From NCBI RefSeq assembly GCF_988242995.1, contig NZ_OZ547043.1: a stretch of DNA of 64,000 nt. One strand, given 5' to 3'. The notes beneath the pieces are model-generated. The model was not told where the DNA came from. It saw only the letters and a program-made list of their open reading frames with translations, and ran no database searches. The position numbers were made by a program, and so were the translations under genes. Shown here in pieces: positions 1,681-58,893 of this stretch; position 1 is the stretch's first letter, and each line of letters starts with the position of its first letter.

Positions 1681-1820
1681 TGATGTGTGTCAGAATATCG
1701 GTAAGAAGAATGGCGCAATCGTGAGGATACGTTTATTCATAATAAATCTCCTGAAAGTTTAGAATTATTTTCGATACAGCCAGATTATCATTGTTACTAA
1801 TAATGTGGTTAAAATAATAG

Positions 1821-4687
<2,867 letters not shown>

Positions 4688-8200: not shown

Positions 8201-9490
8201 GTTGCAGGCGACGCTTCCCGGGCAGTGATCAGTGATATGGCGGTGAAGGTGAATAACCAACTGGCAAATGGACAGTCTGCTAACCAGATAACCCTGACCG
8301 TCGTGGACAGCTATGGTAACCCGTTGCAGGGGCAAGAAGTTACGCTGACTTTACCGCAGGGTGTGACCAGCAAGACGGGGAATACGGTAACAACCAATAC
8401 GGCAGGTAAAGCTGACATTGAGCTGATGTCAACGGTTGCCGGGGAACTTGAGATCGAGGCCGCGGTGAAAAACTCTCAGAAGACGGTCACGGTGAAATTC
8501 AACGCGGATGCCAGCACCGGTCAGGCGAGCCTGGAGGTAGACGCCGCTGCTCAAAAAGTGGCAAACGGCAAAGATGCCTTTACGCTGACGGCGACCGTTG
8601 AGGATAAAAACGGTAACCCTGTTCCAGGCACTCTGGTGACCTTTAATCTGCCCCGAGGTGTCAAGCCGCTTACTGGCGATAATGTCTGGGTGAAAGCCAA
8701 CGATGAGGGGAAAGCAGAGTTGCAGGTGGTTTCCGTGACTGCCGGAACCTATGAGATCACGGCGTCGGCAGGAAATGACCAGCCTTCGGATGCGCAGACT
8801 ATAACGTTTGTGGCCGATAAGGCGACCGCAACCGTCTCCGGTATTGAGGTGATTGGCAACTATGCACTGGCGGATGGCAAAGCCAAACAGACGTATAAAG
8901 TTACGGTGACTGATGCCAATAACAACCTGTTGAAAGATAGCGAGGTGACGCTGACTGCCAGCCCGGCAAATTTAGCTCTGGATCCCGATGGGACGGCGAA
9001 AACTAATGAGCAAGGGCAGGCTATTTTCACCGCCACGACCACTGTCGCAGCGAAATATACACTCACGGCGAAAGTGGAACAGGCCAACGGTCAGGAATCG
9101 ACGAAAACTGCTGAATCTAAATTCGTCGCGGATGATAAAAACGCGGTGCTCGCCGCATCATCTGATGTGCAATCGCTGGTGGCGGATGGGAAATCGACTG
9201 CGAAGCTGGAGGTGACCCTGATGTCGGCAAATAACCCCGTTGGCGGAAATATGTGGGTCGACATTCAGACGCCGGAAGGGGTGACGGAGAAGGATTATCA
9301 GTTCCTGCCGTCGAAAAATGACCATTTCGTGAGCGGAAAAATCACGCGTACATTTAGTACCAACAAGCCAGGTGTCTATACGTTCACATTTAACGCCCTG
9401 ACGTATGGCGGGTACGAAATGAAGCCAGTGACGGTGACCATAACCGCGGTGGATGCCGATACGGCAAAGGGCGAGGTGGCGATGAAATAA
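5237..9490 (+). CDS. eaeH: intimin/invasin-family inverse-autotransporter adhesin with repeated bacterial Ig-like (Big) domains (EaeH/FdeC), full length
   Basis: 1417-aa uninterrupted ORF; N-terminal beta-barrel region followed by about ten ~100-aa repeats carrying T(L)T..VDSYGNPV.G-type Big_1 motifs. Confidence 0.85.
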   Translation: MSRYKTGHKQPRFRYSVLARCVAWANISVQVLFPLAVTFTPVMAARAQHAVQPRLSMENTTVAADNNVEKNVASFAANAGTFLSSQPDSDATRNFITGMATAKANQEIQEWLGKYGTARVKLNVDKDFSLKDSSMEMLYPIYDTPTNMLFTQGAIHRTDERTQSNIGFGWRHFSENDWMAGVNTFIDHDLSRSHTRIGVGAEYWRDYLKLSANGYIRASGWKKSPDVEDYQERPANGWDIRAEGYLPAWPQLGASLMYEQYYGDEVGLFGKDKRQKDPHAITAEVNYTPVPLLTLSAGHKQGKSGENDTRFGLEVNYRIGEPLEKQLDTDSIRERRMLAGSRYDLVERNNNIVLEYRKSEVIRIALPERIEGKGGQTVSLGLVVSKATHGLKNVQWEAPSLLAAGGKITGQGNQWQVTLPAYQAGKDNYYAVSAIAYDNKGNASKRVQTEVVISGAGMSADRTALTLDGQSRIQMLANGNEQKPLVLSLRDAEGQPVTGMKDQIKTELTFKPAGNIVTRSLKATKSQAKPTLGEFTETEAGVYQSVFTTGTQSGEATITVSVDDMSKTVTAELRATMMDVANSTLSANEPSGDVVADGQQAYTLTLTAVDSEGNPVTGEASRLRLVPQDTNGVTVGAISEIKPGVYSATVSSTRAGNVVVRAFSEQYQLGTLQQTLKFVAGPLDAAHSSITLNPDKPVVGGTVTAIWTAKDAYDNPVTSLTPEAPSLAGAAAVGSTASGWTNNGDGTWTAQITLGSTAGELEVMPKLNGQDAAANAAKVTVVADALSSNQSKVSVVKDHVKAGESTTVTLVAKDAHGNAISGLSLSASLTGTASEGATISSWTEKGDGSYVATLTTGGKTGELRVMPLFNGQPAATEAAQLTVIAGEMSSANSTLVADNKAPVVKTTTELTFTVKDAYGNPVTGLKPDAPVFSGAASTGSERPSAGNWTEKGNGVYVSTLTLGSAAGQLSVMPRVNGLNAVAQPLVLNVAGDASRAVISDMAVKVNNQLANGQSANQITLTVVDSYGNPLQGQEVTLTLPQGVTSKTGNTVTTNTAGKADIELMSTVAGELEIEAAVKNSQKTVTVKFNADASTGQASLEVDAAAQKVANGKDAFTLTATVEDKNGNPVPGTLVTFNLPRGVKPLTGDNVWVKANDEGKAELQVVSVTAGTYEITASAGNDQPSDAQTITFVADKATATVSGIEVIGNYALADGKAKQTYKVTVTDANNNLLKDSEVTLTASPANLALDPDGTAKTNEQGQAIFTATTTVAAKYTLTAKVEQANGQESTKTAESKFVADDKNAVLAASSDVQSLVADGKSTAKLEVTLMSANNPVGGNMWVDIQTPEGVTEKDYQFLPSKNDHFVSGKITRTFSTNKPGVYTFTFNALTYGGYEMKPVTVTITAVDADTAKGEVAMK

Positions 9491-36085: not shown

Positions 36086-36379
36086 TACGCATTTGAAACG
36101 CCTGCAATGGTGAATCGTAAGAGATTTAAAGCCCCAGGGAGTGGGGCGGGAATGGTTTGTTAATGAATGATCCTGAACTTTATAATCTCCCGGCATAATT
36201 TCCAGGGGATTATTTGAGAGAAATACACAAAAGTGAGTTTTAACAATATTTATCAAGCCATAAATGTGACCTGCTTCGGATAAAAAAGATTAAAAATAGA
36301 AAAACCAATGATACTCTTGCTGATGGTTATCAACAGTAATTAAGATGTGATTTTTTTCCGTAATCGCGAAAATATTCTC

Positions 36380-36790
36380 ATGACCATAAAAGAAAAAATC
36401 TCACAAAAATATCCCCATGCTTCCTTTTGTACTTTTGGCGATTCAGCAGCGTTGGCCGATCACCTCGCAACGTTGATTGCGACAGGTGTTAAAACAGCTT
36501 CCTGTGGTTCGCTGGCGGGATGTATTGAAGACAACGCATTTCCGATGATTGGTGAGTATAAGATTGTAGAAAATAGCCGTGGTGAGCCTGTCTGTGTTAT
36601 CAGAGTGATTGGCCTGCATTTACTGCGCTTTTCTGATGTCACCGCGGAGCTTGCCCGTAAGGAAGGTGAAGGTGACCTCAGTCTTGAATATTGGCGTAAT
36701 GAACACCGTCGTTTTTTCCAGGCAGAAGGATGCTATTCACCCGAAATGGACGTTATCTTTGAAGAATATGCCCTTATTGACGTTGTGTAG
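36380..36790 (+). CDS. ASCH-domain (PUA-like) protein
   Basis: ORF 36347..36790; start set to MTIKEK; FGDSAALADHLATLIATGVKTASCGS resembles ASCH N-terminal signature. Domain call from motif recall only. Confidence 0.55.
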   Translation: MTIKEKISQKYPHASFCTFGDSAALADHLATLIATGVKTASCGSLAGCIEDNAFPMIGEYKIVENSRGEPVCVIRVIGLHLLRFSDVTAELARKEGEGDLSLEYWRNEHRRFFQAEGCYSPEMDVIFEEYALIDVV

Positions 36791-37040
36791 ATAACTATTT
36801 TTCTACGCGAAATAAGCTCACAAACATAAAGTATCGCTAATTTTGTTTATTTTGCTGTTTTTTACGTGATGATTGTCACACTTATTGTTACTGCCCGTTT
36901 TGTCCATATTTATAACCAAATTTTTAATAGCTGCCTGAAATAGGGCTGTTTATTCTGCATAAAAATATTCGAAAATTCTTATTCTCTCCAGCGCGCTAAT
37001 TTGGGCGAACACTTCCTGACTACCCTGCAATGAGGCTGAA

Positions 37041-38027
37041 ATGATGAATAAACGTTTTGTTATCAATATGGTGTCTTCGCTGTTATTAGGCGCTGCGCTA
37101 ATTTCTGCGCCGCTCCAGGCAGCGGAAAAAGTCGTGGTGAATATCTCTAAAGTCGATGGTATGCCGTGGTTTAATCGCATGGGCGAAGGTGTGGTCGAGG
37201 CGGGTAAAGCCTTTGGTGTTAATGCGTCACAGGTGGGGCCTTCAAGTACTGATGCTCCGCAACAGGTTAAAATCATTGAGGATTTAATCGCCCGTAAGGT
37301 TAATGCAATTACAATTGTGCCAAACGATGCCAACGTGCTGGAACCGGTATTCAAAAAAGCGCGAGATGCCGGAATTGTGGTTCTGACCAACGAATCCCCC
37401 GGTCAGCCAAGTGCTAACTGGGATATCGAAATCATTGATAACGAAAAATTTGCCGCTGAATATGTTGAGCATATGGCGAAACGCATGGGTGGCAAGGGCG
37501 GCTATGTGATTTACGTGGGTAGTTTGACCGTGCCGCAGCATAACTTATGGGCTGACTTGCTGGTGAAATACCAGAAAGAGCATTACCCGGATATGCATGA
37601 AGTTACCCGCCGCATGCCGGTTGCCGAGAGTGTGGATGACTCACGTCGTACCACACTGGACCTCATGAAAACCTATCCTGACTTGAAAGCGGTTGTCTCC
37701 TTTGGTTCAAACGGTCCGATTGGCGCGGGACGTGCAGTGAAAGAGAAACGGGCGAAAAATAAAGTCGCAGTCTATGGCATGATGATCCCTTCACAGGCGG
37801 CATCACTGATTAAAAGTGGTGATATCACCGAAGGGATTACTTACGATCCGGCCTCTGCAGGTTACGCACTCGCGGCCGTCGCCAGCACGTTGCTGAAGGG
37901 TGAAGAGATCAAACCTGGATTAGAAATGGAGAATCTCGGTAAGGCCGACGTAGATATGGATAAGCGAATTATCCGTTTCCATAAGGTATTACTGGTCAAC
38001 AAAGACAATATCGACTCACTTTATTAA
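37041..38027 (+). CDS. periplasmic substrate-binding protein of a CUT2 (ribose/AI-2-type) ABC transporter
   Basis: 328 aa; signal peptide MMNKRFVINMVSSLLLGAALISAPLQAAEK; type-I PBP features. Confidence 0.8.
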   Translation: MMNKRFVINMVSSLLLGAALISAPLQAAEKVVVNISKVDGMPWFNRMGEGVVEAGKAFGVNASQVGPSSTDAPQQVKIIEDLIARKVNAITIVPNDANVLEPVFKKARDAGIVVLTNESPGQPSANWDIEIIDNEKFAAEYVEHMAKRMGGKGGYVIYVGSLTVPQHNLWADLLVKYQKEHYPDMHEVTRRMPVAESVDDSRRTTLDLMKTYPDLKAVVSFGSNGPIGAGRAVKEKRAKNKVAVYGMMIPSQAASLIKSGDITEGITYDPASAGYALAAVASTLLKGEEIKPGLEMENLGKADVDMDKRIIRFHKVLLVNKDNIDSLY

Positions 38028-38075
38028 TCCATTTCTTCGGGGCGAAAGCCCCGATTCTTATTGCCAGGGGATGCT

Positions 38076-39560
38076 ATGGAAACCTTCCTTTCCCTTCGTC
38101 ATATCAACAAAACGTTTCATGCCACGCGAGCGCTGCGCGATGTTTCTCTCGACTTTATGTCGGGTGAGGTGCACTGCCTTGCCGGGCAAAACGGCTGTGG
38201 TAAATCGACGTTGATTAAAATTATGTCCGGTGTTTATCGCCCGGATGAGGGGGCGGAAATTACGCTTGGTGGGAAAAACTGGTCAAAGCTGACACCCGCC
38301 GCTTCGGTGGCGCAGGGGATTCAGGTGATTTATCAGGACCTCTCTTTATTTCCTAACCTGAGTGTCTGGGAGAATATCGCCGTGAATCACTATCACCACG
38401 GTCTGTTTGTTAACCGCCGTCGTCTGCGTGAGGTGGCGCAGGCGGCAATGACCAGTATTAACGTCACATTGCCACTGGATACGCTCGTTTCTGAGCTTTC
38501 AATTGCCCGCTGTCAGCTGGTGGCAATTTGCCGTGCACTGGCGCAGGACGCACGGTTGATCGTGATGGATGAACCAACCGCTTCGCTGACCCATCAGGAA
38601 GTGCAAGGGTTATTACAGGTGGTGCATCAATTGCGGGAACGCGGGATCTGCGTGGTCTTCGTCAGTCATCGTCTGGAAGAAGTGATGGAAGTTTCCGACC
38701 GTATTTCAGTGCTGAAAGATGGTGAGCTGGTCGGGACCTTTCCGGCCGCAGAGATGACCACAAAACAACTCAGTTTTCTGATGACCGGCCAGGAGTTCGA
38801 ATATCAGGTACGAGAGTTGTGGCAGGGAAAATCCAGCACCCCGGTGCTGGAGGTGCGTAATTTAAGTCGTCATGGGGAATATCAAAATATTAACTTGCGG
38901 GTGGAAGCGGGCGAAGTGGTGTCGATTGTTGGCCTGCTTGGTGCGGGGCGCACGGAATTATGTCTGAGTCTGTTTGGTATGACCCGACCGGATGCTGGTG
39001 AGATCCTCATCAACGGTCAGCCGGTTACACTGCATAGTAACCAGGACGCCATCCGCCACGGTATTGGTTATGTTTCGGAAGATCGCATGTCGCGCGGTTT
39101 GGTGATGGCGCAATCTATTGAAGACAACATCATTAGCACTGTTTTTCACAAGGTAAAAGATCGCTTCGGCTTTCTGAGTGAAGCTAAAGTGCGTGACCTG
39201 GTGGACAGGCTAATCAAGGCATTGACCATCAAAGTCTCTGACCCACATCTCCCGGTGAATACGCTTTCCGGGGGTAACGCGCAGCGAGTATCGATCGCCA
39301 AATGGCTGGCGATTGGGCCACGACTGTTGATTCTCGATAGCCCGACAGTCGGTGTTGATATCGCCAACAAAGCAGGAATATACGGCATTATCAGCGATCT
39401 GGCGGCTCATGGCATTGCGGTATTGATGATCTGCGATGAAATTGAAGAAGCGTGGTATCAAAGCCACCGGATTTTGGTAATGCAGAAAGGTCAGATCACC
39501 CATAGCTTCCTGCCTGACAGCAGTTCTCAGGCCAGGATTGCGGAGGTGGTAAATGGCTGA
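38076..39560 (+). CDS. ABC transporter ATPase with duplicated nucleotide-binding domains (RbsA-like)
   Basis: ORF 38061..39560; Walker A GQNGCGKST, signature LSGGNAQRV, Walker B LLILDSPT; start set to METFLSL. Confidence 0.8.
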   Translation: METFLSLRHINKTFHATRALRDVSLDFMSGEVHCLAGQNGCGKSTLIKIMSGVYRPDEGAEITLGGKNWSKLTPAASVAQGIQVIYQDLSLFPNLSVWENIAVNHYHHGLFVNRRRLREVAQAAMTSINVTLPLDTLVSELSIARCQLVAICRALAQDARLIVMDEPTASLTHQEVQGLLQVVHQLRERGICVVFVSHRLEEVMEVSDRISVLKDGELVGTFPAAEMTTKQLSFLMTGQEFEYQVRELWQGKSSTPVLEVRNLSRHGEYQNINLRVEAGEVVSIVGLLGAGRTELCLSLFGMTRPDAGEILINGQPVTLHSNQDAIRHGIGYVSEDRMSRGLVMAQSIEDNIISTVFHKVKDRFGFLSEAKVRDLVDRLIKALTIKVSDPHLPVNTLSGGNAQRVSIAKWLAIGPRLLILDSPTVGVDIANKAGIYGIISDLAAHGIAVLMICDEIEEAWYQSHRILVMQKGQITHSFLPDSSSQARIAEVVNG

Positions 39561-40524
39561 ACTGAAAAAACGTCATGAATTCTGGCTGGCATTACTGATT
39601 GTGGGGCTGTTTGTTGGCCTTGCCTGGCGCAGCGACGAGTTTCTGACATTCGGTAATTTGTACGATCTCGCCAATAACTATGCCATGTTGACTATTCTCG
39701 CCTGTGGTTTGTTTGTGGTGTTAATTTCCGGTGGGATTGATATTTCGTTTCCGGCAATGACCATCATTGCGCAATACGGCATGGTGCTGTTGCTGCAAAA
39801 AATTGGTGGCAACTTTGCTGTCGCGTTTGCACTGGCGGGCGGCATCGGCATTTTACTTGGCTTAATAAACGCCTTACTGGTTAATCGCCTACGGGTGCCG
39901 TCTATCATCATCACCATTTCGACGCTGAATATTTTCTATGGCCTGCTGTTATGGTTGAGTAAAGGTGTGTGGCTGTACGACTTTCCGCCGTGGTTTGAGC
40001 AGGGGGTAATGTTGTTCAAGTACACCGATGCTGACGGCTATGACTATGGCCTTGGTCTGCCGCTGATCGCCATGATTACGGTGGTGCTGCTAACAGCGTT
40101 TATCATGAATTTCACCAGTGTAGGGCGCAAAATTTATGCCCTTGGCGGGAACCGTGAATCAGCCAGTCGCATCGGCTTTAGCGTGCTGAAACTGCAACTT
40201 TTCGTTTACGGCTATATGGGATTGATGTCTGGTGCTGCGGGTGTAGTGCAGTCGTGGACGGTGATGACTGTCGCCCCCGATTCTCTTCTGGGTTATGAGC
40301 TGACAGTACTGGCTGCGGTGGTGCTTGGCGGCACTAGTTTGCTCGGCGGGCGCGGCACGTTAACCGGTACTTTGCTCGGCGTGGTGTTGTTGGCAGTGAT
40401 GCAAAACGGGCTAAATTTATTGGGAGTCTCGTCTTACTGGCAAACATTGATCACCGGCATCATCATCGTTGCCAGCATTAGTGCCACGGCGTGGAGTCAG
40501 CATCAGAACCGGAGTCTGCTATGA
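39553..40524 (+). CDS. ABC transporter permease (RbsC-like)
   Basis: 323-aa polytopic ORF; start overlaps ATPase stop by 8 nt. Confidence 0.8.
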   Translation: MAELKKRHEFWLALLIVGLFVGLAWRSDEFLTFGNLYDLANNYAMLTILACGLFVVLISGGIDISFPAMTIIAQYGMVLLLQKIGGNFAVAFALAGGIGILLGLINALLVNRLRVPSIIITISTLNIFYGLLLWLSKGVWLYDFPPWFEQGVMLFKYTDADGYDYGLGLPLIAMITVVLLTAFIMNFTSVGRKIYALGGNRESASRIGFSVLKLQLFVYGYMGLMSGAAGVVQSWTVMTVAPDSLLGYELTVLAAVVLGGTSLLGGRGTLTGTLLGVVLLAVMQNGLNLLGVSSYWQTLITGIIIVASISATAWSQHQNRSLL

Positions 40525-41477
40525 AAAAATCGTGGCGTAACAACGTTGAGTTTTACTTGATCGGCCTGCTGGTGCTAACTGTTGCAGCCTTCAGCATTAC
40601 TATGCCGGAGATTTTCTGGTCGATAAGTAATTTCCAGTCCGTCGCTTCGCAAATGCCCGTGCTGGGCATTCTGGCGTTGGCTATGGCGGTGACCATGCTT
40701 TGCGGTGGCATTAACTTGTCAATTATTGCCACTGCTAACGCCTGTTCACTGGTAATGGCGTGGGTGGCGACTCAGTATCCACCGGGTATTGCTACGGTTG
40801 TCGCTACGCTGCTGGCGGGCGCTGGCGCGGCGGTGATAATCGGTTTATGTAACGGCGTATTGATTGCTGGTATTCGAGTGTCGCCAATTCTTGCAACGCT
40901 TGGGATGATGACGTTGCTCAAAGGGGTAAATATTCTGGTGACAGGCGGTAGCGCCATTGCCAATTATCCCTCATGGGTGCTGTGGTTGAATCATGCGCAA
41001 TGGTTCGGTATTCCGCTACCGATGTGGTTGTTTGCCGCAGTGGCACTGGGGCTGTGGATATTGCTGGAGAAAACGCCGCTCGGTAAAGCCATTTATCTGA
41101 TTGGTTCTAACGAACGAGCAACACTTTACTCCGGTATTAACACTCGTCGGGTGCTGATATGGGTGTATGTCATTTCCGCCTTACTTTGTGCGGTAGCGGC
41201 ATTTTTGATGATGTCGAAACTCAACTCGGCTAAGGCCTCTTATGGCGAATCGTACTTGCTGGTGTCAATCCTCGCGGCAGTACTCGGCGGGGTTAATCCG
41301 GACGGCGGCAGCGGGCGGATAATTGGTATGGTGCTGGCGCTGTTTCTTCTGCAAATTATTGAAAGCGGCTTCAATATTCTCGGTATAAGCCCCTACCTGA
41401 CGATGGCCTTATGGGGAACGTTGCTGCTCTGTTTCATTCAGGCTCGCGGCATGTTGGGGCTGGATCGGGTGGTTTAA
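40521..41477 (+). CDS. ABC transporter permease (RbsC-like), second copy
   Basis: ORF 40491..41477; start set to MKKSWRNN (ATG 40521) forming an ATGA overlap with the upstream stop. Confidence 0.8.
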   Translation: MKKSWRNNVEFYLIGLLVLTVAAFSITMPEIFWSISNFQSVASQMPVLGILALAMAVTMLCGGINLSIIATANACSLVMAWVATQYPPGIATVVATLLAGAGAAVIIGLCNGVLIAGIRVSPILATLGMMTLLKGVNILVTGGSAIANYPSWVLWLNHAQWFGIPLPMWLFAAVALGLWILLEKTPLGKAIYLIGSNERATLYSGINTRRVLIWVYVISALLCAVAAFLMMSKLNSAKASYGESYLLVSILAAVLGGVNPDGGSGRIIGMVLALFLLQIIESGFNILGISPYLTMALWGTLLLCFIQARGMLGLDRVV

Positions 41478-45539: not shown

Positions 45540-47126
45540 TCAGTTTTTCAGCCGCCGCCAGAACGTCGTCCGGCTTATGCCTAAATAATTCGCCGCTGCT
45601 GTTTTATCGCCTTTAAATTTCTCCAGTGCCTGTTGTGGTGTCAGTAAGCGTGGAGCGGGAATTTTCGCCGACTCGCGCGCCAGTTCCGGCAGTAGCAGCT
45701 GCAAAAATTGCGGCGTTAAATCCGGCGTCGGTTCCACACTTAAAAACAGCGCCAGTCGCTCCATCATATTGCGCAGTTCACGAATATTGCCCGGCCAGTC
45801 GTAGTGCACCAGCACGGTTTCGCTTGCCTGTAACCCCTGGCGTAATGCGGCAGAAAACGGGGCGGAGAGCGCCGCCAGAGACACTTTCAAAAAGCTTTCC
45901 GCCAGCGGCAGAATATCCGCCACCCGCTCGCGCAGTGGTGGCAATTGCAGACGCAAAATACTCAGCCGATAAAACAGATCACGGCGAAAACGTCCTTGCT
46001 GCATATCTTCTTCCAGATTGCAGTGAGTGGCGCTAATGACCCGCACATCTAACGGAACAGGCTGATGCCCGCCGACGCGGGTGACCTCTTTTTCTTCCAG
46101 CACCCGTAACAGGCGAGTCTGCAAAGGTAGCGGCATTTCGCCAATCTCATCCAGAAACAGCGTACCGCCGTGGGCAATTTCGAACAGCCCGGCGCGACCT
46201 CCACGTCGCGAGCCGGTGAACGCCCCTTCCTCATAGCCAAACAGCTCTGCTTCCAGCAGCGATTCGGCAATCGCCCCGCAGTTGACGGCAACAAACGGAT
46301 GCGACTTTTTGCCCTGTCGCGCATCGTGGCGGGCAAAATATTCCCGATGAATCGCCTGGGCCGCCAGCTCTTTGCCCGTCCCCGTTTCCCCTTCAATCAA
46401 CACCGCTGCACTGGAGCGGGCATACAGCAAAATAGTCTGCCGTACCTGTTCCATCTGTGGTGATTGACCGAGCATATCGCCCAGCACGTAACGAGTACGC
46501 AGGGCGTTGCGGGTGGCATCGTGAGTGTTATGGCGTAACGACATGCGCGTCATATCCAGCGCATCGCTGAATGCCTGGCGCACGGTGGCGGCGGAATAGA
46601 TAAAAATTCCGGTCATTCCGGCTTCTTCTGCCAAATCGGTAATCAGCCCCGCGCCGACCACCGCTTCGGTGCCGTTAGCTTTCAGCTCGTTAATCTGCCC
46701 GCGCGCGTCTTCTTCGGTAATGTAGCTACGTTGGTCGAGGCGCAAATTAAAGGTTTTTTGAAACGCCACCAGCGCTGGAATGGTTTCCTGATAAGTGACA
46801 ACGCCGATAGAAGAGGTGAGTTTTCCGGCTTTTGCCAGTGCCTGTAACACATCGTAGCCGCTCGGTTTAATCAAAATAACTGGCACTGACAGGCGGCTTT
46901 TCAGGTACGCGCCGTTAGAGCCAGCAGCGATGATGGCGTCACAGCGTTCGCTTGCCAGTTTCTTGCGGATGTAGGTCACCGCTTTTTCAAAGCCAAGCTG
47001 GATAGGGGTAATGTTCGCCAGATGATCAAACTCGAGGCTGATATCGCGAAACAGCTCGAACAGGCGCGTCACCGATACCGTCCAGATAACCGGTTTGTCG
47101 TCATTCAGCCGTGGTGGATGTGCCAT
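45540..47126 (-). CDS. prpR: sigma-54-dependent enhancer-binding activator of propionate catabolism
   Basis: ORF 45540..47138; start set to [10 protein letters not shown] (528 aa); AAA+ sigma54-activator motifs ([14 protein letters not shown]) and C-terminal HTH. Confidence 0.9.
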
Positions 47127-47302
47127 AGCGCACCGCAAAATTAAGAAACCGAATATTGGGTTTAGCCTTGTTTCATAATTGTTGCAATGAAACGCGGTGA
47201 AACATTGCCTGAAACGTTAACTGAAACGCATATTTGCGGATTACTTCATGACTTTATTTATAACAAATTGAAATTAAACATTTAATTTTATTCAGTCAAT
47301 TG

Positions 47303-47318
47303 TGGCACACCCCTTGCT
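47303..47318 (+). promoter_or_regulatory. sigma-54 (-24/-12) promoter for prpBCDE
   Basis: TGGCAC-N5-TTGCT (tggcacaccccttgct), ~47 nt upstream of prpB ATG. Confidence 0.6.
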
Positions 47319-47364
47319 TTGTCTTTATTAACGCAAATAACAAGTTGATAACAAAGGATGGGCT

Positions 47365-48255
47365 ATGTCTCTACACTCTCCAGGTAAAGCGTTTCGCGCT
47401 GCACTGTCTAAAGAAAATCCATTGCAGATTGTCGGCACCATCAACGCTAACCATGCGCTGCTGGCGCAGCGTGCCGGATATCAGGCAATTTATCTCTCCG
47501 GCGGTGGCGTGGCGGCAGGGTCGCTGGGGCTGCCCGATCTCGGTATTTCTACTCTTGATGACGTGCTGACAGATATTCGCCGTATCACCGACGTTTGTTC
47601 GCTGCCGCTGCTGGTGGATGCGGATATCGGTTTTGGTTCTTCTGCTTTTAACGTGGCGCGCACCGTGAAATCGATGATTAAAGCCGGTGCGGCAGGATTG
47701 CATATTGAAGATCAGGTTGGTGCGAAACGCTGCGGTCATCGTCCGAATAAAGCGATCGTCTCGAAAGAGGAGATGGTGGATCGGATCCGCGCGGCGGTGG
47801 ATGCGAAAACCGATCCTGATTTTGTGATCATGGCGCGCACCGATGCGCTGGCGGTTGAAGGGCTGGACGCCGCGATCGAGCGTGCGCAGGCCTACGTTGA
47901 AGCGGGTGCCGAGATGTTGTTCCCGGAGGCGATTACCGAACTCGCCATGTACCGCCAGTTTGCCGATGCGGTGCAGGTGCCGATCCTCGCCAACATCACC
48001 GAATTTGGCGCAACACCGCTGTTTACCACCGACGAATTACGCAGCGCCCATGTTGCAATGGCGCTGTACCCGCTTTCAGCGTTTCGCGCCATGAACCGCG
48101 CCGCCGAACATGTCTACAACGTCCTGCGTCAGGAAGGCACGCAGAAAAGCGTCATCGACACCATGCAAACCCGCAACGAGCTGTACGAAAGCATCAATTA
48201 CTACCAGTACGAAGAGAAGCTCGACGACCTGTTTGCCCGTAGCCAGGTGAAATAA
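47365..48255 (+). CDS. prpB: 2-methylisocitrate lyase
   Basis: 296 aa; isocitrate-lyase/PEP-mutase family. Confidence 0.9.
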
Positions 48256-48299
48256 AACACAACGAAAAATATCTCGACCCTACAAATGACGAGGACAAT

Positions 48300-49469
48300 A
48301 TGAGCGACACAACGATCCTGCAAAACAGTACCCATGTCATTAAACCGAAAAAATCGGTGGCACTTTCTGGCGTTCCGGCGGGCAATACGGCGCTCTGCAC
48401 CGTGGGTAAAAGTGGCAATGATTTGCATTACCGAGGCTACGACATTCTTGATCTGGCGGAACATTGCGAATTTGAAGAAGTGGCGCATCTGCTGATCCAC
48501 GGCAAACTGCCGACCCGTGACGAACTCGCCGCCTACAAAACGAAACTGAAAGCCCTGCGCGGTTTACCGGCTAACGTGCGTACCGTGCTGGAAGCCTTAC
48601 CGGCGGCGTCACACCCGATGGATGTTATGCGCACCGGCGTTTCCGCGCTCGGCTGCACGCTGCCAGAAAAAGAGGGGCATACCGTCTCTGGCGCGCGGGA
48701 TATTGCCGACAAACTGCTGGCGTCACTTAGCTCGATTCTTCTCTACTGGTATCACTACAGCCACAACGGCGAACGCATTCAGCCGGAAACCGATGACGAC
48801 TCCATCGGCGGTCACTTCCTGCATCTGCTGCATGGCGAAAAGCCGTCGCAAAGCTGGGAAAAGGCGATGCATATTTCGCTGGTGCTGTACGCCGAACACG
48901 AGTTTAACGCCTCCACCTTTACCAGCCGGGTGATTGCGGGCACCGGCTCTGATATGTATTCCGCGATTATTGGCGCGATTGGTGCACTGCGCGGGCCGAA
49001 GCACGGCGGGGCGAATGAAGTGTCGCTGGAGATCCAGCAACGCTACGAAACGCCGGACGAAGCCGAAGCCGATATCCGCAAGCGGGTGGAAAACAAAGAA
49101 GTGGTCATTGGTTTTGGTCATCCGGTTTATACCATCGCCGACCCGCGTCATCAGGTGATCAAACGCGTGGCGAAGCAGCTCTCGCAGGAAGGCGGTTCGC
49201 TGAAGATGTATAACATCGCCGATCGCCTGGAAACAGTGATGTGGGAGAGCAAAAAGATGTTCCCCAATCTCGACTGGTTCTCCGCTGTTTCCTACAACAT
49301 GATGGGCGTTCCCACCGAGATGTTCACCCCACTGTTTGTTATCGCCCGCGTCACCGGCTGGGCGGCGCACATTATCGAACAACGTCAGGACAACAAAATT
49401 ATCCGTCCTTCCGCCAATTATGTTGGACCGGAAGACCGCCAGTTTGTCGCGCTGGATAAGCGCCAGTAA
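48300..49469 (+). CDS. prpC: 2-methylcitrate synthase
   Basis: 389 aa; citrate-synthase family. Confidence 0.9.
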
Positions 49470-49502: not shown

Positions 49503-50954
49503 ATGTCAGCTCAAATCAACAACATCCGCCCGGAATTTGATCGTGAAATCGTTGATATCGTCGATTACGTGATGAACTACGAAATCAGCTCCAGAGTGGC
49601 CTACGAGACCGCACATTACTGCCTGCTCGACACGCTCGGCTGCGGTCTGGAAGCTCTCGAATACCCGGCCTGTAAAAAACTGCTGGGGCCAATTGTCCCT
49701 GGCACCGTCGTACCCAACGGCGTGCGCGTCCCCGGAACTCAGTTCCAGCTCGACCCCGTCCAGGCGGCATTTAACATCGGCGCGATGATCCGTTGGCTCG
49801 ATTTCAACGATACCTGGCTGGCGGCGGAGTGGGGCCATCCTTCCGACAACCTCGGCGGCATTCTGGCAACGGCGGACTGGCTTTCGCGCAACGCGGTCGC
49901 TAGCGGCAAAGCGCCGTTGACCATGAAGCAGGTGCTGACCGGAATGATCAAAGCCCATGAAATTCAGGGCTGCATCGCGCTGGAAAACTCCTTTAACCGC
50001 GTCGGCCTCGACCACGTTCTGTTAGTGAAAGTGGCTTCCACCGCCGTGGTCGCCGAAATGCTCGGCCTGACCCGCGAGGAAATTCTCAACGCCGTTTCGC
50101 TGGCGTGGGTGGACGGTCAGTCGCTGCGCACCTATCGCCATGCGCCGAACACCGGCACGCGTAAATCCTGGGCGGCGGGCGATGCCACTTCCCGCGCGGT
50201 ACGTCTGGCACTGATGGCGAAAACGGGCGAAATGGGTTACCCGTCAGCCCTGACTGCGCCGGTATGGGGCTTCTACGACGTCTCCTTCAAAGGTGAATCG
50301 TTCCGCTTCCAGCGCCCGTACGGTTCTTACGTCATGGAAAATGTGCTGTTCAAAATCTCCTTCCCGGCGGAGTTCCACTCCCAGACGGCAGTTGAAGCAG
50401 CGATGACGCTCTATGAACAGATGCAGGCAGCAGGCAAAACGGCGGCAGATATCGAAAAAGTGACCATTCGCACCCACGAAGCCTGTATTCGCATCATCGA
50501 CAAAAAAGGACCGCTCAATAACCCGGCAGACCGCGACCACTGCATTCAGTACATGGTGGCGATCCCGCTGCTGTTCGGACGCTTAACGGCGGCAGATTAC
50601 GAGGACAACGTTGCGCAAGATAAACGCATCGACGCCCTGCGCGAGAAGATCAATTGCTTTGAAGATCCGGCATTTACCGCTGACTACCACGACCCGGAAA
50701 AACGTGCCATCGCCAATGCCATAACCCTTGAGTTCACCGACGGTACGCGATTTGAAGAAGTGGTGGTGGAGTACCCAATTGGTCATGCTCGCCGCCGTCA
50801 GGATGGCATTCCGAAGCTGGTCGATAAATTCAAAATCAATCTCGCGCGCCAGTTCCCGACTCGCCAACAGCAGCGCATTCTGGAGGTTTCTCTCGACAGA
50901 GCTCGCCTGGAACAGATGCCGGTTAATGAGTATCTCGACCTGTACGTCATTTAA
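49503..50954 (+). CDS. prpD: 2-methylcitrate dehydratase
   Basis: 483 aa; MmgE/PrpD family. Confidence 0.9.
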
Positions 50955-50993: not shown

Positions 50994-52880
50994 ATGTCTT
51001 TTAGCGAATTTTATCAGCGTTCGATTAACGAACCGGAGCAGTTCTGGGCCGAGCAGGCCCGGCGTATTGACTGGCAGACGCCCTTTACGCAAACGCTCGA
51101 TCACAGCAATCCGCCGTTTGTCCGTTGGTTTTGTGAAGGCCGAACCAACTTGTGTCACAACGCTATCGACCGCTGGCTGGAGAAACAGCCAGAGGCGCTG
51201 GCGCTGATTGCCGTCTCTTCGGAAACAGAAGAAGAGTGCACCTTTACCTTCCGCCAGTTACATGACGAAGTGAATGCGGTGGCCTCAATGCTGCGCTCGC
51301 TGGGTGTGCAGCGCGGCGATCGGGTGCTGGTGTATATGCCGATGATTGCCGAAGCGCATATTACTCTGCTGGCTTGCGCGCGCATTGGCGCTATTCACTC
51401 GGTGGTGTTTGGGGGATTTGCCTCGCACAGCGTGGCGGCGCGAATTGATGATGCTAAACCGGTGCTGATTGTCTCGGCTGATGCCGGAGCGCGCGGTGGC
51501 AAAATCATTCCCTATAAAAAATTGCTCGACGATGCGATAAGTCAGGCGCAGCACCAGCCACGCCATGTTTTGCTGGTGGATCGCGGGCTGGCGAAAATGG
51601 CACGCGTCAGCGGGCGGGATGTCGATTTCGCGTCGTTGCGCCATCAACACATCGGCGCACGGGTACCGGTGGCGTGGCTGGAATCCAACGAAACCTCCTG
51701 CATTCTCTACACCTCCGGCACGACCGGCAAACCTAAAGGCGTGCAGCGTGACGTTGGCGGATATGCGGTGGCGCTGGCGACCTCGATGGACACCATTTTT
51801 GGCGGCAAAGCGGGCGGTGTGTTCTTTTGTGCTTCGGATATCGGCTGGGTGGTGGGGCATTCGTATATCGTCTACGCGCCGCTGCTGGCGGGGATGGCGA
51901 CTATCGTTTACGAAGGATTACCGACCTGGCCGGACTGCGGCGTGTGGTGGAAAATCGTCGAGAAATATCAGGTTAGCCGCATGTTCTCAGCGCCGACCGC
52001 CATTCGCGTGCTGAAAAAATTCCCTACCGCTGAAATTCGCAAACACGATCTCTCGTCGCTGGAAGTGCTCTATCTGGCTGGAGAACCGCTGGACGAGCCG
52101 ACCGCCAGTTGGGTGAGCAATACGCTGGATGTGCCGGTCATCGACAACTACTGGCAGACCGAATCCGGCTGGCCGATTATGGCGATTGCTCGCGGTCTGG
52201 ACGACAGGCCGACGCGTCTGGGAAGCCCCGGCGTGCCGATGTATGGCTATAACGTGCAGTTGCTTAATGAAGTCACCGGCGAACCGTGTGGCGTCAACGA
52301 GAAAGGGATGCTGGTGGTGGAAGGGCCATTGCCGCCGGGGTGTATTCAGACCATTTGGGGCGACGACGACCGCTTTGTGAAGACGTACTGGTCGCTGTTT
52401 TCCCGCCCGGTGTACGCCACCTTTGACTGGGGCATCCGTGACGCTGACGGTTATCACTTTATTCTCGGGCGCACTGACGATGTAATTAACGTTGCCGGGC
52501 ATCGGCTGGGGACGCGCGAGATTGAAGAGAGTATCTCCAGTCATCCGGGCGTTGCCGAAGTGGCGGTGGTTGGGGTGAAAGATGCGCTGAAAGGGCAGGT
52601 GGCGGTGGCGTTTGTTATTCCGAAAGAGAGCGACAGTCTGGAAGATCGTGATGTGGCGCATTCGCAAGAGAAGGCGATTATGGCGCTGGTGGACAGCCAG
52701 ATTGGCAACTTTGGCCGCCCGGCGCACGTCTGGTTTGTCTCGCAATTGCCAAAAACGCGATCCGGAAAAATGCTGCGCCGCACGATCCAGGCGATTTGCG
52801 AAGGACGCGATCCTGGGGATCTGACGACCATTGATGATCCTGCGTCGTTGGATCAGATCCGCCAGGCGATGGAAGAGTAG
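50994..52880 (+). CDS. prpE: propionyl-CoA synthetase
   Basis: 628 aa; acyl-CoA synthetase AMP-binding motif (YTSGTTGKPKG). Confidence 0.9.
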   Translation: MSFSEFYQRSINEPEQFWAEQARRIDWQTPFTQTLDHSNPPFVRWFCEGRTNLCHNAIDRWLEKQPEALALIAVSSETEEECTFTFRQLHDEVNAVASMLRSLGVQRGDRVLVYMPMIAEAHITLLACARIGAIHSVVFGGFASHSVAARIDDAKPVLIVSADAGARGGKIIPYKKLLDDAISQAQHQPRHVLLVDRGLAKMARVSGRDVDFASLRHQHIGARVPVAWLESNETSCILYTSGTTGKPKGVQRDVGGYAVALATSMDTIFGGKAGGVFFCASDIGWVVGHSYIVYAPLLAGMATIVYEGLPTWPDCGVWWKIVEKYQVSRMFSAPTAIRVLKKFPTAEIRKHDLSSLEVLYLAGEPLDEPTASWVSNTLDVPVIDNYWQTESGWPIMAIARGLDDRPTRLGSPGVPMYGYNVQLLNEVTGEPCGVNEKGMLVVEGPLPPGCIQTIWGDDDRFVKTYWSLFSRPVYATFDWGIRDADGYHFILGRTDDVINVAGHRLGTREIEESISSHPGVAEVAVVGVKDALKGQVAVAFVIPKESDSLEDRDVAHSQEKAIMALVDSQIGNFGRPAHVWFVSQLPKTRSGKMLRRTIQAICEGRDPGDLTTIDDPASLDQIRQAMEE

Positions 52881-54376: not shown

Positions 54377-55649
54377 CGCTTTACAGACAATTATTAACGC
54401 CCGGTTACCCGGCAAAGAGGGGCTGTGGCAGATTCATCTGCTGGACGGAAAAATCAGCGCCATTGATGCGCAATCCGGGGTGATGCCCGTAACTGAAAAC
54501 AGCCTGGATGCCGAACAAGGTTTAGTTATACCGCCGTTTGTGGAGCCACATATTCACCTGGACACCACGCAAACCGCCGGACAACCGAACTGGAATCAGT
54601 CTGGCACGCTGTTTGAAGGCATTGAACGCTGGGCCGAGCGCAAAGCGTTATTAACCCATGACGATGTGAAACAACGCGCCTGGCAAACGCTGAAATGGCA
54701 GATTGCCAACGGCATTCAGCATGTGCGTACCCATGTCGATGTTTCGGATGCAACGCTGACCGCGCTGAAAGCAATGCTGGAAGTGAAGCAGGAAGTCGCG
54801 CCGTGGATTGATCTGCAAATCGTCGCCTTCCCGCAGGAAGGGATTTTGTCGTATCCCAACGGTGAAGCGTTGCTGGAAGAGGCGTTACGCTTAGGGGCAG
54901 ACGTAGTGGGGGCGATTCCGCATTTTGAATTTACCCGTGAATATGGCGTGGAGTCGCTGCATAAAACCTTCGCCCTGGCGCAAAAATACGACCGTCTCAT
55001 CGATGTTCACTGTGATGAGATTGATGACGAACAGTCGCGCTTTGTTGAAACCGTTGCTGCCCTGGCGCACCGTGAAGGCATGGGCGCGCGAGTCACCGCC
55101 AGCCACACTACGGCAATGCACTCCTATAACGGGGCGTATACCTCGCGCCTGTTCCGCTTGCTGAAAATGTCCGGTATTAACTTTGTCGCCAACCCGCTGG
55201 TCAATATTCATCTGCAAGGACGTTTCGATACGTATCCAAAACGTCGCGGCATCACGCGCGTTAAAGAGATGCTGGAGTCCGGCATTAACGTCTGCTTTGG
55301 TCACGATGATGTCTTCGATCCGTGGTATCCACTGGGAACGGCGAATATGCTGCAAGTGCTGCATATGGGGCTGCATGTTTGTCAGTTGATGGGCTACGGG
55401 CAGATTAACGACGGCCTGAATTTAATCACCCACCATAGCGCCAGGACGTTGAATTTGCAGGATTACGGCATTGCCGCCGGAAACAGCGCCAACCTGATTA
55501 TCCTGCCTGCAGAAAATGGGTTTGATGCGCTGCGCCGTCAGGTTCCTGTACGTTATTCGGTACGTGGCGGTAAGGTGATTGCCAGCACACAACCGGCACA
55601 AACCACCGTATATCTGGATCAGCCAGAAGCCATCGATTACAAACGGTAA
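54366..55649 (+). CDS. codA: cytosine deaminase (amidohydrolase superfamily)
   Basis: ORF 54351..55649; GTG at 54366 ([16 protein letters not shown]) gives 427 aa; overlaps codB by 11 nt. Confidence 0.9.
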
Positions 55650-58181: not shown

Positions 58182-58893
58182 GTGCACAGAAAACCCCCAG
58201 CTAGGCTGGGGGTTCCGGAAAGCTTTCAGCTTTGAGCCAGTTATTAAAACCCCTTTTGATTTGTTAAAACACCTTGCGGTCTGGCAACTGCAAGTGTCAA
58301 ACAAGAAATCAAAAGGGGGTCCCAATGGGGAACGAAAAGAGCTTAGCGCACACCCGATGGAACTGTAAATATCACATAGTTTTTGCGCCAAAATACCGAA
58401 GACAGGTGTTCTACAGAGAGAAGCGTAGAGCAATAGGCAGTATTTTGAGAAAGCTGTGTGAGTGGAAAAGCGTACGGATTCTGGAAGCTGAATGCTGTGC
58501 AGATCATATCCATATGCTTGTGGAGATCCCGCCCAAAATGAGCGTATCCGGGTTTATGGGATATCTGAAAGGGAAAAGCAGTCTGATGCTTTACGAGCAG
58601 TTTGGTGATTTGAAATTCAAATACAGGAACAGGGAGTTCTGGTGCAGAGGGTACTACGTCGATACAGTGGGTAAGAACACGGCGAAGATACAGGATTACA
58701 TAAAGCACCAGCTTGAAGAGGATAAAATGGGAGAGCAGTTATCGATTCCCTATCCGGGCAGCCCGTTTACGGGCCGTAAGTAACGAAGTTGGATGCAAAT
58801 GTCAGATCGTGTGCGCCTGTTAGGGCGCGGCTGGTAAGAGAGCCTTATAGGCGCATTTGAAAAACCTCCGGCTATGCCGGAGGATATTTATTT
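58182..58893 (+). mobile_element. IS200 (IS200/IS605 family) insertion element, ~712 bp
   Basis: Carries a 152-aa tnpA, left-end hairpin aaacccccagctaggctgggggtt and right-end hairpin cctccggctatgccggagg; precisely interrupts cynX with no evident target duplication. Confidence 0.85.
58325..58783 (+). CDS. tnpA: IS200 transposase TnpA (HUH Y1 transposase)
   Basis: ORF 58274..58783; MGNEKSLAHTRWNCKYHIVFAPKYRRQVFY...HIHMLVEIPPK (HuH motif)...YYVDTVG (catalytic Tyr region); matches recalled Salmonella IS200 TnpA. Confidence 0.9.
   Translation: MGNEKSLAHTRWNCKYHIVFAPKYRRQVFYREKRRAIGSILRKLCEWKSVRILEAECCADHIHMLVEIPPKMSVSGFMGYLKGKSSLMLYEQFGDLKFKYRNREFWCRGYYVDTVGKNTAKIQDYIKHQLEEDKMGEQLSIPYPGSPFTGRK

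What the first reader, a model, noticed from the sequence alone, without database searches (positions are those of the whole stretch)
47303..47318. Consensus sigma-54 promoter for prpBCDE
tGGcacaccccttGCt matches the -24/-12 consensus with correct spacing, and the divergently encoded PrpR is a sigma-54 enhancer-binding protein. This is known biology and confirms the operon's regulatory architecture is intact here.
Basis: partly seen in the sequence, partly recalled or inferred. Interest (0 to 1): 0.2.

Follow-up and report, generated by a model that had tools for sequence, protein, structure and literature searches.

The report
Known sigma-54 promoter of prpBCDE
This is the already-described sigma-54 promoter that switches on the E. 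coli propionate-breakdown operon prpBCDE; it is present, intact and ordinary in this window.

Summary
The 16-mer TGGCACACCCCTTGCT is at window 47303-47318 (+), with GG and GC separated by 10 nt. It lies 46 nt upstream of the prpB ATG. The divergent gene is an intact prpR encoding a sigma-54 enhancer-binding protein.

On its own the motif is not significant at 64-kb scale: 17 of 100 shuffles give an exact consensus match, and 110 of 200 random windows reach its PSSM score. Its position and conservation carry the case:
- It is the top-scoring site in the window.
- It lies in a 238-bp intergenic region, on the correct strand.
- 76 of 80 orthologous prpB loci, from Enterobacteriaceae to Oxalobacteraceae, keep a sense-strand site of at least 14 bits, against 0.2% of background windows. 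TGG and TTGC are invariant; the spacer varies freely.

The 17-mer is identical to sigma-54 ChIP-seq site OS01 of E. coli K-12 (Bonocora 2015). The homologous Salmonella site is bound by sigma-54, and prpBCDE there is 45-fold rpoN-dependent (Samuels 2013). PrpR half-sites at -159 to -102 and an A/T-rich IHF-like tract complete the standard architecture.

Verdict: observation confirmed, interpretation supported, already known, low interest. One small unexplained extra is a conserved TAACA(A) motif pair in the prpB leader.

The parts
47303..47318 (+). Sigma-54 -24/-12 promoter element TGGCACACCCCTTGCT. GG is at 47304-47305 and GC at 47316-47317. The ChIP-seq 17-mer spans 47302-47318.
   Evidence: Identical to K-12 ChIP-seq site OS01. 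TGG and TTGC are invariant in 75 distinct orthologous sites.
47329..47329 (+). Predicted transcription start, +/- 2 nt: 19 nt downstream of the motif centre at 47310 and 36 nt before the prpB ATG.
   Evidence: Inference using the rule of Bonocora 2015, which gives the same 36-nt distance for K-12. Not mapped experimentally in any source I could read; EcoCyc status was 'predicted' in 2015.
47169..47194 (.). PrpR enhancer (UAS) site 1: palindrome TGTTTCAT-N10-ATGAAACG, about -160 to -135 from the predicted start.
   Evidence: (I1, I9). Near-invariant across 12 Enterobacteriaceae. The half-sites match the published PrpR enhancer consensus CGTTTCATGAAACG (PMC4987338).
47198..47229 (.). PrpR enhancer region 2: three TGAAAC half-sites starting at 47198, 47210 and 47222 (spacing 12 and 12 nt), about -131 to -100. 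The published CRP site is said to overlap the PrpR operator and probably lies here.
   Evidence: (D2). The block TGAAACGTTAxCTG is invariant. The CRP overlap is reported second-hand in PMC9452892. The CRP site itself was not locatable by consensus.
47250..47300 (.). A/T-rich spacer between the UAS and the promoter. It contains IHF-like boxes, the best at 47261-47273 (-) with 1 mismatch, centred near -62. This is the presumed IHF bend site.
   Evidence: The region is length-variable and poorly conserved. The IHF requirement comes from Palacios & Escalante-Semerena 2000 as cited in PMC5566544. The site assignment is inference.
47329..47364 (+). Predicted 36-nt prpB leader, with the Shine-Dalgarno AGGA at 47355-47358 and two ATAACAA motifs at 47337-47343 and 47348-47354.
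45540..47126 (-). prpR: sigma-54 enhancer-binding protein, 528 aa, responsive to 2-methylcitrate.
   Evidence: NCBIfam NF011953 at 1009.6 bits against a cut-off of 703. Pfam PrpR_N, Sigma54_activat, AAA_lid_14 and HTH_8. Walker A GETGTGKE at residue 246 and GAFTGS at 301.
47365..48255 (+). prpB: 2-methylisocitrate lyase, 296 aa.
   Evidence: NF008455 at 560.9 bits against a cut-off of 353.
48300..49469 (+). prpC: 2-methylcitrate synthase, 389 aa.
   Evidence: NF009006 at 721.9 bits against a cut-off of 550.
49503..50954 (+). prpD: 2-methylcitrate dehydratase, 483 aa.
   Evidence: TIGR02330 at 925.2 bits against a cut-off of 458.
50994..52880 (+). prpE: propionate--CoA ligase, 628 aa.
   Evidence: TIGR02316 at 1301.3 bits against a cut-off of 827.4.

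Best explanation

Proposed mechanism:
1. RNA polymerase-sigma-54 holoenzyme binds the GG/GC element as a stable closed complex that cannot open by itself. Binding is shown for the identical K-12 sequence.
2. PrpR, encoded divergently, binds the GTTTCA/TGAAAC half-site cluster about 100-160 bp upstream. This is inferred here from sequence and conservation; the enhancer consensus is published for Salmonella.
3. When propionate has been converted to 2-methylcitrate by PrpE and PrpC, PrpR is activated. IHF bends the intervening A/T-rich DNA, and PrpR's AAA+ domain contacts sigma-54 through its GAFTGS loop. ATP hydrolysis then drives open-complex formation. These steps come from the literature on Salmonella and E. 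coli and are not tested here.
4. Transcription is predicted to start near 47329, giving a 36-nt unstructured leader.
5. CRP adds catabolite control (literature).
For: Sequence and anatomy:
- Exact TGGCAC-N5-TTGCW, unique in the window and the top PSSM hit of 127,968 positions.
- Sense orientation, 46 nt from the prpB ATG.
- No sigma-70-like promoter in 46900-47600 (0 found, 1.1 expected).
- Five GTTTCA/TGAAAC half-sites at -159 to -102, and IHF-like boxes in between.
- Intact PrpR bEBP and intact prpBCDE.

Comparative:
- The promoter and UAS blocks are identical to K-12.
- The region is present in 5,218 of 5,426 complete E. coli genomes.
- In 80 PrpB loci from about 20 genera, 76 have a sense-strand site of at least 14 bits, 38-90 nt (two at 188 nt) from the ATG. 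That compares with 0 of 80 on the antisense strand and 0.2% of background windows. TGG and TTGC are invariant while spacer positions carry 0.03-0.7 bits.
- The one Pseudomonas locus has no PrpR-type gene and no site (6.1 bits).
- The footprint alignment shows the -24/-12 element as a discrete conserved island.

Experimental literature:
- Sigma-54 ChIP-seq peak OS01 with this exact 17-mer, FAT 17 (PMC4591121).
- RpoN-holoenzyme gSELEX peak between prpR and prpB (PMC8743547).
- Salmonella ChIP-chip site TGGCATAGCCTTTGCTTT and a 45-fold WT/delta-rpoN ratio for prpBCDE (PMC3844500).
- Requirement for prpR, ntrA and ihf, and 2-methylcitrate as co-activator, as cited in PMC5566544 and PMC4987338.
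Against: - No experiment exists on this strain.
- The transcription start in E. coli is predicted, not mapped, in every source I could read. EcoCyc flagged it 'P' in 2015.
- The three primary papers (PMC94363, PMC178778, PMC1070369) are not held, so rpoN, ihf and CRP dependence are quoted second-hand.
- The bare motif is not statistically significant at window scale.
- The site's PSSM score is below average for real sites because of its C-rich spacer.
- Anchoring on the best PSSM hit inflates apparent conservation of the core positions. The background rate controls for this, but the loci are phylogenetically related.
- The window has T at 47329 where K-12 and most relatives have C. The effect is unknown and probably nil.
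Confidence: 0.95

Rival explanations
1. [quoted passage not shown] On this view prpBCDE in E. coli is really transcribed from a different promoter, for example a CRP-dependent sigma-70 one.
For: Bonocora et al. stress that binding does not prove promoter function, and the E. coli prpB promoter was only 'predicted' in EcoCyc. CRP acts directly on the region according to secondary sources. No E. coli transcription start was found in held papers.
Against: No sigma-70-like -35/-10 pair occurs anywhere in 46900-47600. The site is intergenic, sense-oriented and at a canonical distance from the gene, paired with a cognate bEBP gene and upstream half-sites. The homologous Salmonella operon is 45-fold rpoN-dependent. 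The site co-varies with presence of a PrpR-type activator across genera.
Confidence: 0.03
2. The match is a chance occurrence of a short degenerate motif in a 64-kb window and has no function.
For: 17 of 100 shuffled windows contain an exact consensus match. 110 of 200 Markov windows contain a site with an equal or better PSSM score.
Against: The chance expectation for the specific 238-nt, one-strand location is about 3e-4, derived. 76 of 80 orthologous loci keep such a site, against 0.2% of background windows. TGG and TTGC are invariant amid a diverged, indel-rich intergenic region. Sigma-54 occupancy of the identical sequence is shown directly.
Confidence: 0.01

Closest known systems
E. coli K-12 MG1655 prpBp (sigma-54 promoter of prpBCDE, b0331-b0335)
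   Same: The -24/-12 17-mer is identical, as are both PrpR half-site blocks, the 238-bp intergenic length and the 36-nt predicted leader. It has the same divergent prpR and the same gene order, prpR | prpBCDE-codBA.
   Different: There are 8 single-base differences in the intergenic region, all outside the conserved blocks, including T for C at the predicted +1 (47329). K-12 carries about 423 extra bp between prpB and prpC that this window lacks.
Salmonella enterica LT2 prpBCDE promoter (STM0368), the experimentally characterised prototype
   Same: The architecture is the same: divergent prpR, sigma-54 site about 47 nt from the ATG, upstream GTTTCA/TGAAAC enhancers, an ihf requirement and a 2-methylcitrate co-activator.
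   Different: The core is TGGCATAGCCTTTGCT against TGGCACACCCCTTGCT here, differing at 3 of 16 positions, none of them in GG, GC or the TTGC block. Salmonella and Citrobacter have a perfect CGTTTCATGAAACG second enhancer, where E. coli has CATTGCCTGAAACG with a degenerate left half. The A/T-rich spacer differs in length and sequence.
E. coli atoDAEB promoter (AtoC-dependent sigma-54 promoter for short-chain fatty acid catabolism)
   Same: Its -24/-12 element TGGCACTCCCCTTGCT matches 15 of 16 positions, including the unusual C-rich spacer (Table 1 of PMC4591121). It also controls a short-chain fatty acid pathway through a dedicated bEBP.
   Different: It uses a different activator (AtoC, a response regulator, against the ligand-binding PrpR), a different enhancer and a different locus. 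The resemblance is to the core element only and may be coincidental.

Membership tests
Sigma-54 (RpoN) dependent -24/-12 promoter | Conserved GG and GC dinucleotides exactly 10 nt apart within TGGCAC-N5-TTGCW | tested here: met
   Exact match at 47303-47318 with 0 mismatches. Leave-one-out PSSM score of 15.4 bits, about the median of 49 ChIP-defined sites.
Sigma-54 (RpoN) dependent -24/-12 promoter | Sense orientation at a short distance upstream of the regulated gene, in non-coding DNA | tested here: met
   On the + strand, 46 nt from the prpB ATG, within the 238-bp prpR-prpB intergenic region.
Sigma-54 (RpoN) dependent -24/-12 promoter | A cognate bacterial enhancer-binding protein with an AAA+ sigma-54 interaction domain and GAFTGA-type loop | tested here: met
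   Divergent prpR with Sigma54_activat at 219 bits, PrpR_N and HTH_8. It passes the NCBIfam PrpR equivalog. The loop is GAFTGS at 301-306, with one substitution at the last residue, and the Walker A motif is present.
Sigma-54 (RpoN) dependent -24/-12 promoter | Upstream activator sequences about 80-200 bp from the promoter | tested here: met
   Five GTTTCA/TGAAAC half-sites at 47170-47227, or -159 to -102. They are conserved across Enterobacteriaceae and match the published PrpR enhancer half-sites. Actual PrpR binding was not tested.
Sigma-54 (RpoN) dependent -24/-12 promoter | Conservation of the element at orthologous loci with a free spacer sequence | tested here: met
   76 of 80 loci carry a site of at least 14 bits, against 0.2% of background windows. 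TGG and TTGC are invariant, and spacer information is 0.03-0.7 bits.
Sigma-54 (RpoN) dependent -24/-12 promoter | Physical occupancy by sigma-54 holoenzyme | not testable with these tools
   Not testable for this strain. For the identical K-12 sequence there is a ChIP-seq peak OS01 with FAT 17 (PMC4591121) and a gSELEX peak (PMC8743547).
Sigma-54 (RpoN) dependent -24/-12 promoter | rpoN- and activator-dependent transcription starting about 12 nt downstream of the GC | not testable with these tools
   In Salmonella, prpBCDE is 45-fold higher in WT than in delta-rpoN (PMC3844500). The prpR/ntrA/ihf requirement is cited. No mapped E. coli start was found.
Sigma-54 (RpoN) dependent -24/-12 promoter | Absence of a competing sigma-70 -35/-10 promoter for the same gene | tested here: met
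   0 sigma-70-like sites in 46900-47600 on either strand, against 1.1 expected. This is a simple consensus scan, so weak promoters, including prpR's own, are not excluded.
prpR / prpBCDE 2-methylcitrate-cycle locus | Full-length prpB, prpC, prpD and prpE in one direction, divergent from prpR | tested here: met
   All five pass equivalog cut-offs over their full length. Their lengths equal those of K-12: 528, 296, 389, 483 and 628 aa.

The most novel reading that the evidence does not exclude
The promoter itself is not novel. The most novel reading left open concerns the prpB leader. Two TAACA(A) motifs lie downstream of the -12 element, at window 47337-47343 and 47348-47354. Together they form an exact IHF-consensus match on the minus strand, and they echo the IHF-like box upstream of the promoter.

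The motifs are strongly conserved across Enterobacterales, with one copy fixed 15-17 nt before the ATG. They could mark an undescribed second control layer on prpBCDE. Candidates are a post-transcriptional element (a binding site for Hfq, an sRNA or a translation enhancer) or a second, promoter-proximal IHF or other DNA-protein site. The alternative is a mere constraint for an unstructured, A-rich ribosome-loading region.
Probability: 0.2. Interest if true: 0.35.

Novelty: already known. Interest (0 to 1): 0.08.

Why it matters
It matters little beyond annotation. The result shows that this strain keeps the complete, canonical regulatory cassette for propionate catabolism: PrpR, its enhancer, the IHF-like tract and the sigma-54 promoter. 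The operon should therefore be inducible by propionate through 2-methylcitrate, as in K-12 and Salmonella. The same cassette is used as the pPro expression system and in propionate biosensors.

The cross-genus comparison gives a clean example of selection on a sigma-54 element. TGG and TTGC are invariant over 75 distinct sequences from Enterobacteriaceae to Oxalobacteraceae, and the spacer varies freely. It also shows that a perfect consensus match is not significant by itself in 64 kb.

Tried and rejected
- **Primary papers.** Palacios & Escalante-Semerena 2000 (PMC94363), Horswill & Escalante-Semerena 1997 (PMC178778) and Lee, Newman & Keasling 2005 (PMC1070369) are not held. Claims about rpoN, ihf and CRP therefore rest on later papers that cite them.
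- **Transcription start.** A search for a mapped prpB start found none.
- **CRP site.** A TGTGA-N6-TCACA scan gives nothing better than 3-4 mismatches of 10 in the intergenic region. I could not place the published site and only note that it is said to overlap the PrpR operator.
- **GAFTGA.** An exact regex failed. The loop is GAFTGS, so it is a variant, not an absence.
- **Runner-up sites.** The next-best sigma-54-like PSSM hits are 54601-54617 (+, 14.9 bits, inside codA) and 48970-48986 (+, 13.7 bits, inside prpC). Neither sequence, nor codA or prpC, appears in the text of the Bonocora ChIP-seq paper. I treat them as chance.
- **Leader structure.** Folding 47329-47400 gives -8.5 kcal/mol and z = +1.17, with 184 of 200 shuffles folding at least as well. 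No riboswitch- or attenuator-like structure is present.
- **Inverted repeat I3** (47311-47322 / 47351-47362) was rejected as an RNA element because its left arm lies upstream of the predicted start.
- **Leader literature.** A search for CsrA, Hfq or sRNA control of enterobacterial prpB found only Neisseria sibling-sRNA work.

Full report
**1. The observation.** Reading the window shows tggcacaccccttgct at exactly 47303-47318 on the + strand. GG is at 47304-47305 and GC at 47316-47317. That is the GG-N10-GC arrangement of the sigma-54 consensus TGGCAC-N5-TTGCW, with no mismatch. It is the only exact match on either strand of the 64-kb window. The ORF map and NCBIfam scans confirm the neighbours:
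- prpR at 45540-47126 (-), 528 aa from the ATG used in K-12;
- prpB at 47365-48255, prpC at 48300-49469, prpD at 49503-50954 and prpE at 50994-52880, all (+).

Each exceeds its curated equivalog cut-off over the full length. The motif ends 46 nt before the prpB ATG, inside a 238-bp intergenic region.

**2. Is it more than chance?** Taken alone, no. An exact consensus match is expected 0.18 times per shuffled window, and 17 of 100 shuffles contain one. Relaxed matches (up to 2 mismatches) are not enriched: 31 observed against 43 expected.

I built a PSSM from 49 other intergenic sigma-54 sites defined by ChIP-seq (Table 1 of PMC4591121), leaving the prpB site out. The prpB site scores 15.4 bits. 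That is the best of 127,968 positions and about the median (15.5) of the training sites. Even so, 110 of 200 first-order Markov windows reach that score somewhere.

The weight therefore lies in position. The expected number of exact matches on the sense strand of this 238-nt region is about 3e-4 (derived). Comparative data provide the proper test, as described in section 4.

**3. Anatomy of the control region.** Five GTTTCA/TGAAAC half-sites cluster at 47170-47227. Two form a palindrome, TGTTTCAT-N10-ATGAAACG, at 47169-47194. Three more TGAAAC copies follow at 10-12-nt intervals. These match the half-sites of the published PrpR enhancer consensus CGTTTCATGAAACG (PMC4987338, Table 1, citing Palacios & Escalante-Semerena 2004).

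Bonocora's rule places the start 19 nt downstream of the motif centre, which gives 47329. That reproduces their 36-nt distance to prpB. Relative to this start, the half-sites span -159 to -102, the normal range for a bacterial enhancer-binding protein (bEBP).

Between the half-sites and the promoter lies an A/T-rich tract (47250-47300) with three one-mismatch IHF-consensus boxes. A simple scan finds no sigma-70-type promoter anywhere in 46900-47600.

PrpR has PrpR_N, Sigma54_activat, AAA lid and HTH_8 domains. It also has a Walker A motif (GETGTGKE, residue 246) and a GAFTGS version of the sigma-54 contact loop at residues 301-306.

**4. Related sequences.** The 301-bp region is present in 5,218 of 5,426 complete E. 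coli genomes at 90-99% identity. It is 96% identical to K-12 MG1655, with the promoter and both enhancer blocks unchanged.

One scan of species-representative genomes with PrpB returned 80 loci. They come from Escherichia, Citrobacter, Kluyvera, Pluralibacter, Salmonella, Pseudocitrobacter, Shimwellia, Xenorhabdus, Photorhabdus, Morganella, Providencia, several Oxalobacteraceae, one Pseudomonas and one Paraburkholderia.

I took the best sense-strand PSSM hit in the 300 nt upstream of prpB in each locus:
- 76 of 80 score at least 14 bits (median 16.4).
- 0 of 80 do so on the antisense strand of the same DNA.
- 0.2% of 2,976 background 300-nt strand-windows from the same loci do so.
- The sites lie 38-90 nt from the ATG, apart from two Providencia loci at about 188 nt.

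Across 75 distinct site sequences, T2-G3-G4 and T13-T14-G15-C16 are invariant. Spacer positions 9-12 carry only 0.03-0.7 bits.

The Pseudomonas locus has no PrpR-type gene within 3 kb and no site (6.1 bits), which serves as a natural negative control.

A full-length alignment of 12 enterobacterial control regions has 62% mean column identity and many indels. It shows the -24/-12 element, the two enhancer blocks and the Shine-Dalgarno/ATG as discrete conserved islands.

Two caveats apply. Anchoring on the best hit favours consensus bases, and the loci are related by descent. The background rate and the freely varying spacer and flanks argue that neither accounts for the result.

**5. Experimental literature.**
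- Bonocora et al. 2015 (PMC4591121) list ChIP-seq peak OS01 at 347850 (U00096.2). Its motif is GTGGCACACCCCTTGCT on the + strand, with FAT 17, 36 nt from prpB, a PSSM score of 9.469 and EcoCyc status 'P'. That 17-mer is identical to window 47302-47318, and the motif centre maps to window 47310.
- Shimada et al. 2021 (PMC8743547) report an in vitro RpoN-holoenzyme gSELEX peak at 347864, between prpR and prpB.
- Samuels et al. 2013 (PMC3844500) report a ChIP-chip site TGGCATAGCCTTTGCTTT upstream of Salmonella prpB, with signal ratio 11. They also report a 45-fold WT/delta-rpoN difference for prpBCDE when a promiscuous activator is expressed.
- Reviews cite Palacios & Escalante-Semerena 2000 and 2004 for the requirement of prpR, ntrA (rpoN) and ihf, and for 2-methylcitrate as co-activator. 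They cite Lee et al. 2005 for direct CRP control.

I could not read those primary papers, and I found no mapped E. coli transcription start.

**6. Mechanism.** Shown for the identical K-12 sequence: sigma-54 holoenzyme occupies the element.

Shown here by sequence and conservation: the element, the enhancer half-sites and an intact cognate bEBP are present in the canonical geometry.

Inferred from the family's established behaviour and the Salmonella work:
- The closed complex waits at -24/-12.
- 2-methylcitrate-activated PrpR, bound about 100-160 bp upstream, is brought to it by an IHF-induced bend.
- PrpR uses ATP hydrolysis and its GAFTGS loop to open the promoter.
- Transcription starts near 47329, and CRP superimposes catabolite control.

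My confidence in this account is 0.95. The rivals are weak: a bound but non-productive site with a different real promoter (0.03), and a chance motif (0.01).

**7. Comparison and membership.** The element meets every sequence-testable criterion of a sigma-54 promoter: core, spacing, orientation, distance, cognate bEBP, upstream activator sites, conservation, and the absence of a sigma-70 alternative. Occupancy and rpoN dependence cannot be tested with these tools, but both are published for the identical K-12 sequence and the Salmonella homologue.

It is the same object as K-12 prpBp. 'Consensus' applies to the core only. Because of its C-rich spacer and the G at the position just before the T of TGG, its PSSM score ranks about 32nd of the 42 intergenic sense sites in Bonocora's table. 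Its occupancy (FAT 17) is nevertheless above their median. The atoD promoter shares 15 of its 16 core bases.

**8. Novelty and verdict.** This is already known. Interest is 0.08.

**9. Things outside the finding.**
- **Leader motif.** The prpB leader contains ATAACAAGTTGATAACAA at 47337-47354, strongly conserved from Escherichia to Pluralibacter. On the minus strand it is an exact IHF-consensus match. It is also a 79% direct repeat of the IHF-like box upstream of the promoter. Across 11 genus representatives, TAACA occurs 17 times in the leaders against 1.1 expected (0 of 2,000 shuffles). One copy lies 15-17 nt before the ATG in 8 genera, and the spacing between copies varies. The leader RNA is unstructured, and no held paper describes the motif. 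It may simply reflect selection for an open, A-rich ribosome-loading region.
- **Synteny with K-12.** The window is collinear with K-12 at about 314-365 kb and 96-98% identity. It lacks K-12's ~423-bp prpB-prpC insert. It carries an extra four-gene sugar ABC transporter between yahJ and yahK, and an IS200/IS605-family transposase inserted in cynX. It has a 1,417-aa ORF where K-12 has the IS3-disrupted eaeH pseudogene.

Noticed in passing
window 47337-47354 (prpB leader); also 47260-47278: Conserved leader block ATAACAAGTTGATAACAA: two TAACAA copies 11 nt apart, forming an exact IHF-consensus match on the minus strand at 47338-47350. It is a 79% direct repeat of the IHF-like box upstream of the promoter. 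TAACA occurs 17 times in 11 genus-representative leaders against 1.1 expected, with one copy fixed 15-17 nt before the ATG. The leader RNA is unstructured. No held paper describes it.
   Followed up: partly
window 47203-47216 vs L003, L018 and L019 in alignment A2: The second PrpR enhancer is a perfect CGTTTCATGAAACG in Salmonella, Citrobacter and Pluralibacter. In E. coli and E. albertii its left half is degenerate (CATTGCCTGAAACG), and an extra TGAAAC copy lies upstream at 47198-47203. The invariant part is TGAAACGTTAxCTG.
   Followed up: partly
window 47329: The window has T at the predicted +1 position, where K-12, E. albertii, Citrobacter, Kluyvera and Pluralibacter have C within a conserved ATCAAC. 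The effect is unknown.
   Followed up: no
window 48256-48299 (prpB-prpC spacer): The prpB-prpC gap is 44 bp here. K-12 MG1655 has about 423 extra bp (349574-349997) at this point, so K-12 carries an insertion or this strain a deletion within the operon.
   Followed up: partly
window 36148-41405: A 5.2-kb segment between yahJ and yahK is absent from K-12. It encodes a sugar ABC transporter: substrate-binding protein at 37041-38027, ATPase at 38061-39560, and permeases at 39553-40524 and 40491-41477. All hits fall below equivalog cut-offs, so the substrate is unknown.
   Followed up: partly
window 58183-58891: An insertion of about 710 bp relative to K-12 position 360282, inside cynX. It encodes an IS200/IS605-family transposase at 58274-58783 (147 bits against a cut-off of 55). 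cynX is probably disrupted in this strain.
   Followed up: partly
window 5237-9490 and window 1-4686: A 1,417-aa ORF occupies the position where K-12 has the eaeH pseudogene interrupted by IS3A; it may be an intact intimin-like adhesin. The first 4.7 kb of the window has no match in K-12 296-372 kb. Neither was characterised.
   Followed up: no
window 54601-54617 (+) and 48970-48986 (+): These are the runner-up sigma-54-like sites: CTGGCACGCTGTTTGAA inside codA (14.9 bits) and TTGGCGCGATTGGTGCA inside prpC (13.7 bits). Neither appears in the text of the Bonocora ChIP-seq paper, so they are probably chance.
   Followed up: partly
L038, L041, L042, L045-L049, L052, L053, L056 (Janthinobacterium); L023-L029 and others (Photorhabdus, Xenorhabdus): Janthinobacterium loci have a strong sigma-54 site (19.0 bits) and 3-7 upstream TGAAAC/GTTTCA half-sites, but no PrpR-like gene within 3 kb. 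In Massilia the prpR gene lies about 2.4 kb or more upstream. Separately, Photorhabdus, Xenorhabdus and Janthinobacterium leaders contain a GTTTCAT/ATGAAAC half-site downstream of the promoter.
   Followed up: no
Table 1 of PMC4591121 vs window 47303-47318: The E. coli atoD sigma-54 promoter core TGGCACTCCCCTTGCT differs from the prpB core at only one of 16 positions and shares the atypical C-rich spacer. Both operons catabolise short-chain fatty acids.
   Followed up: no
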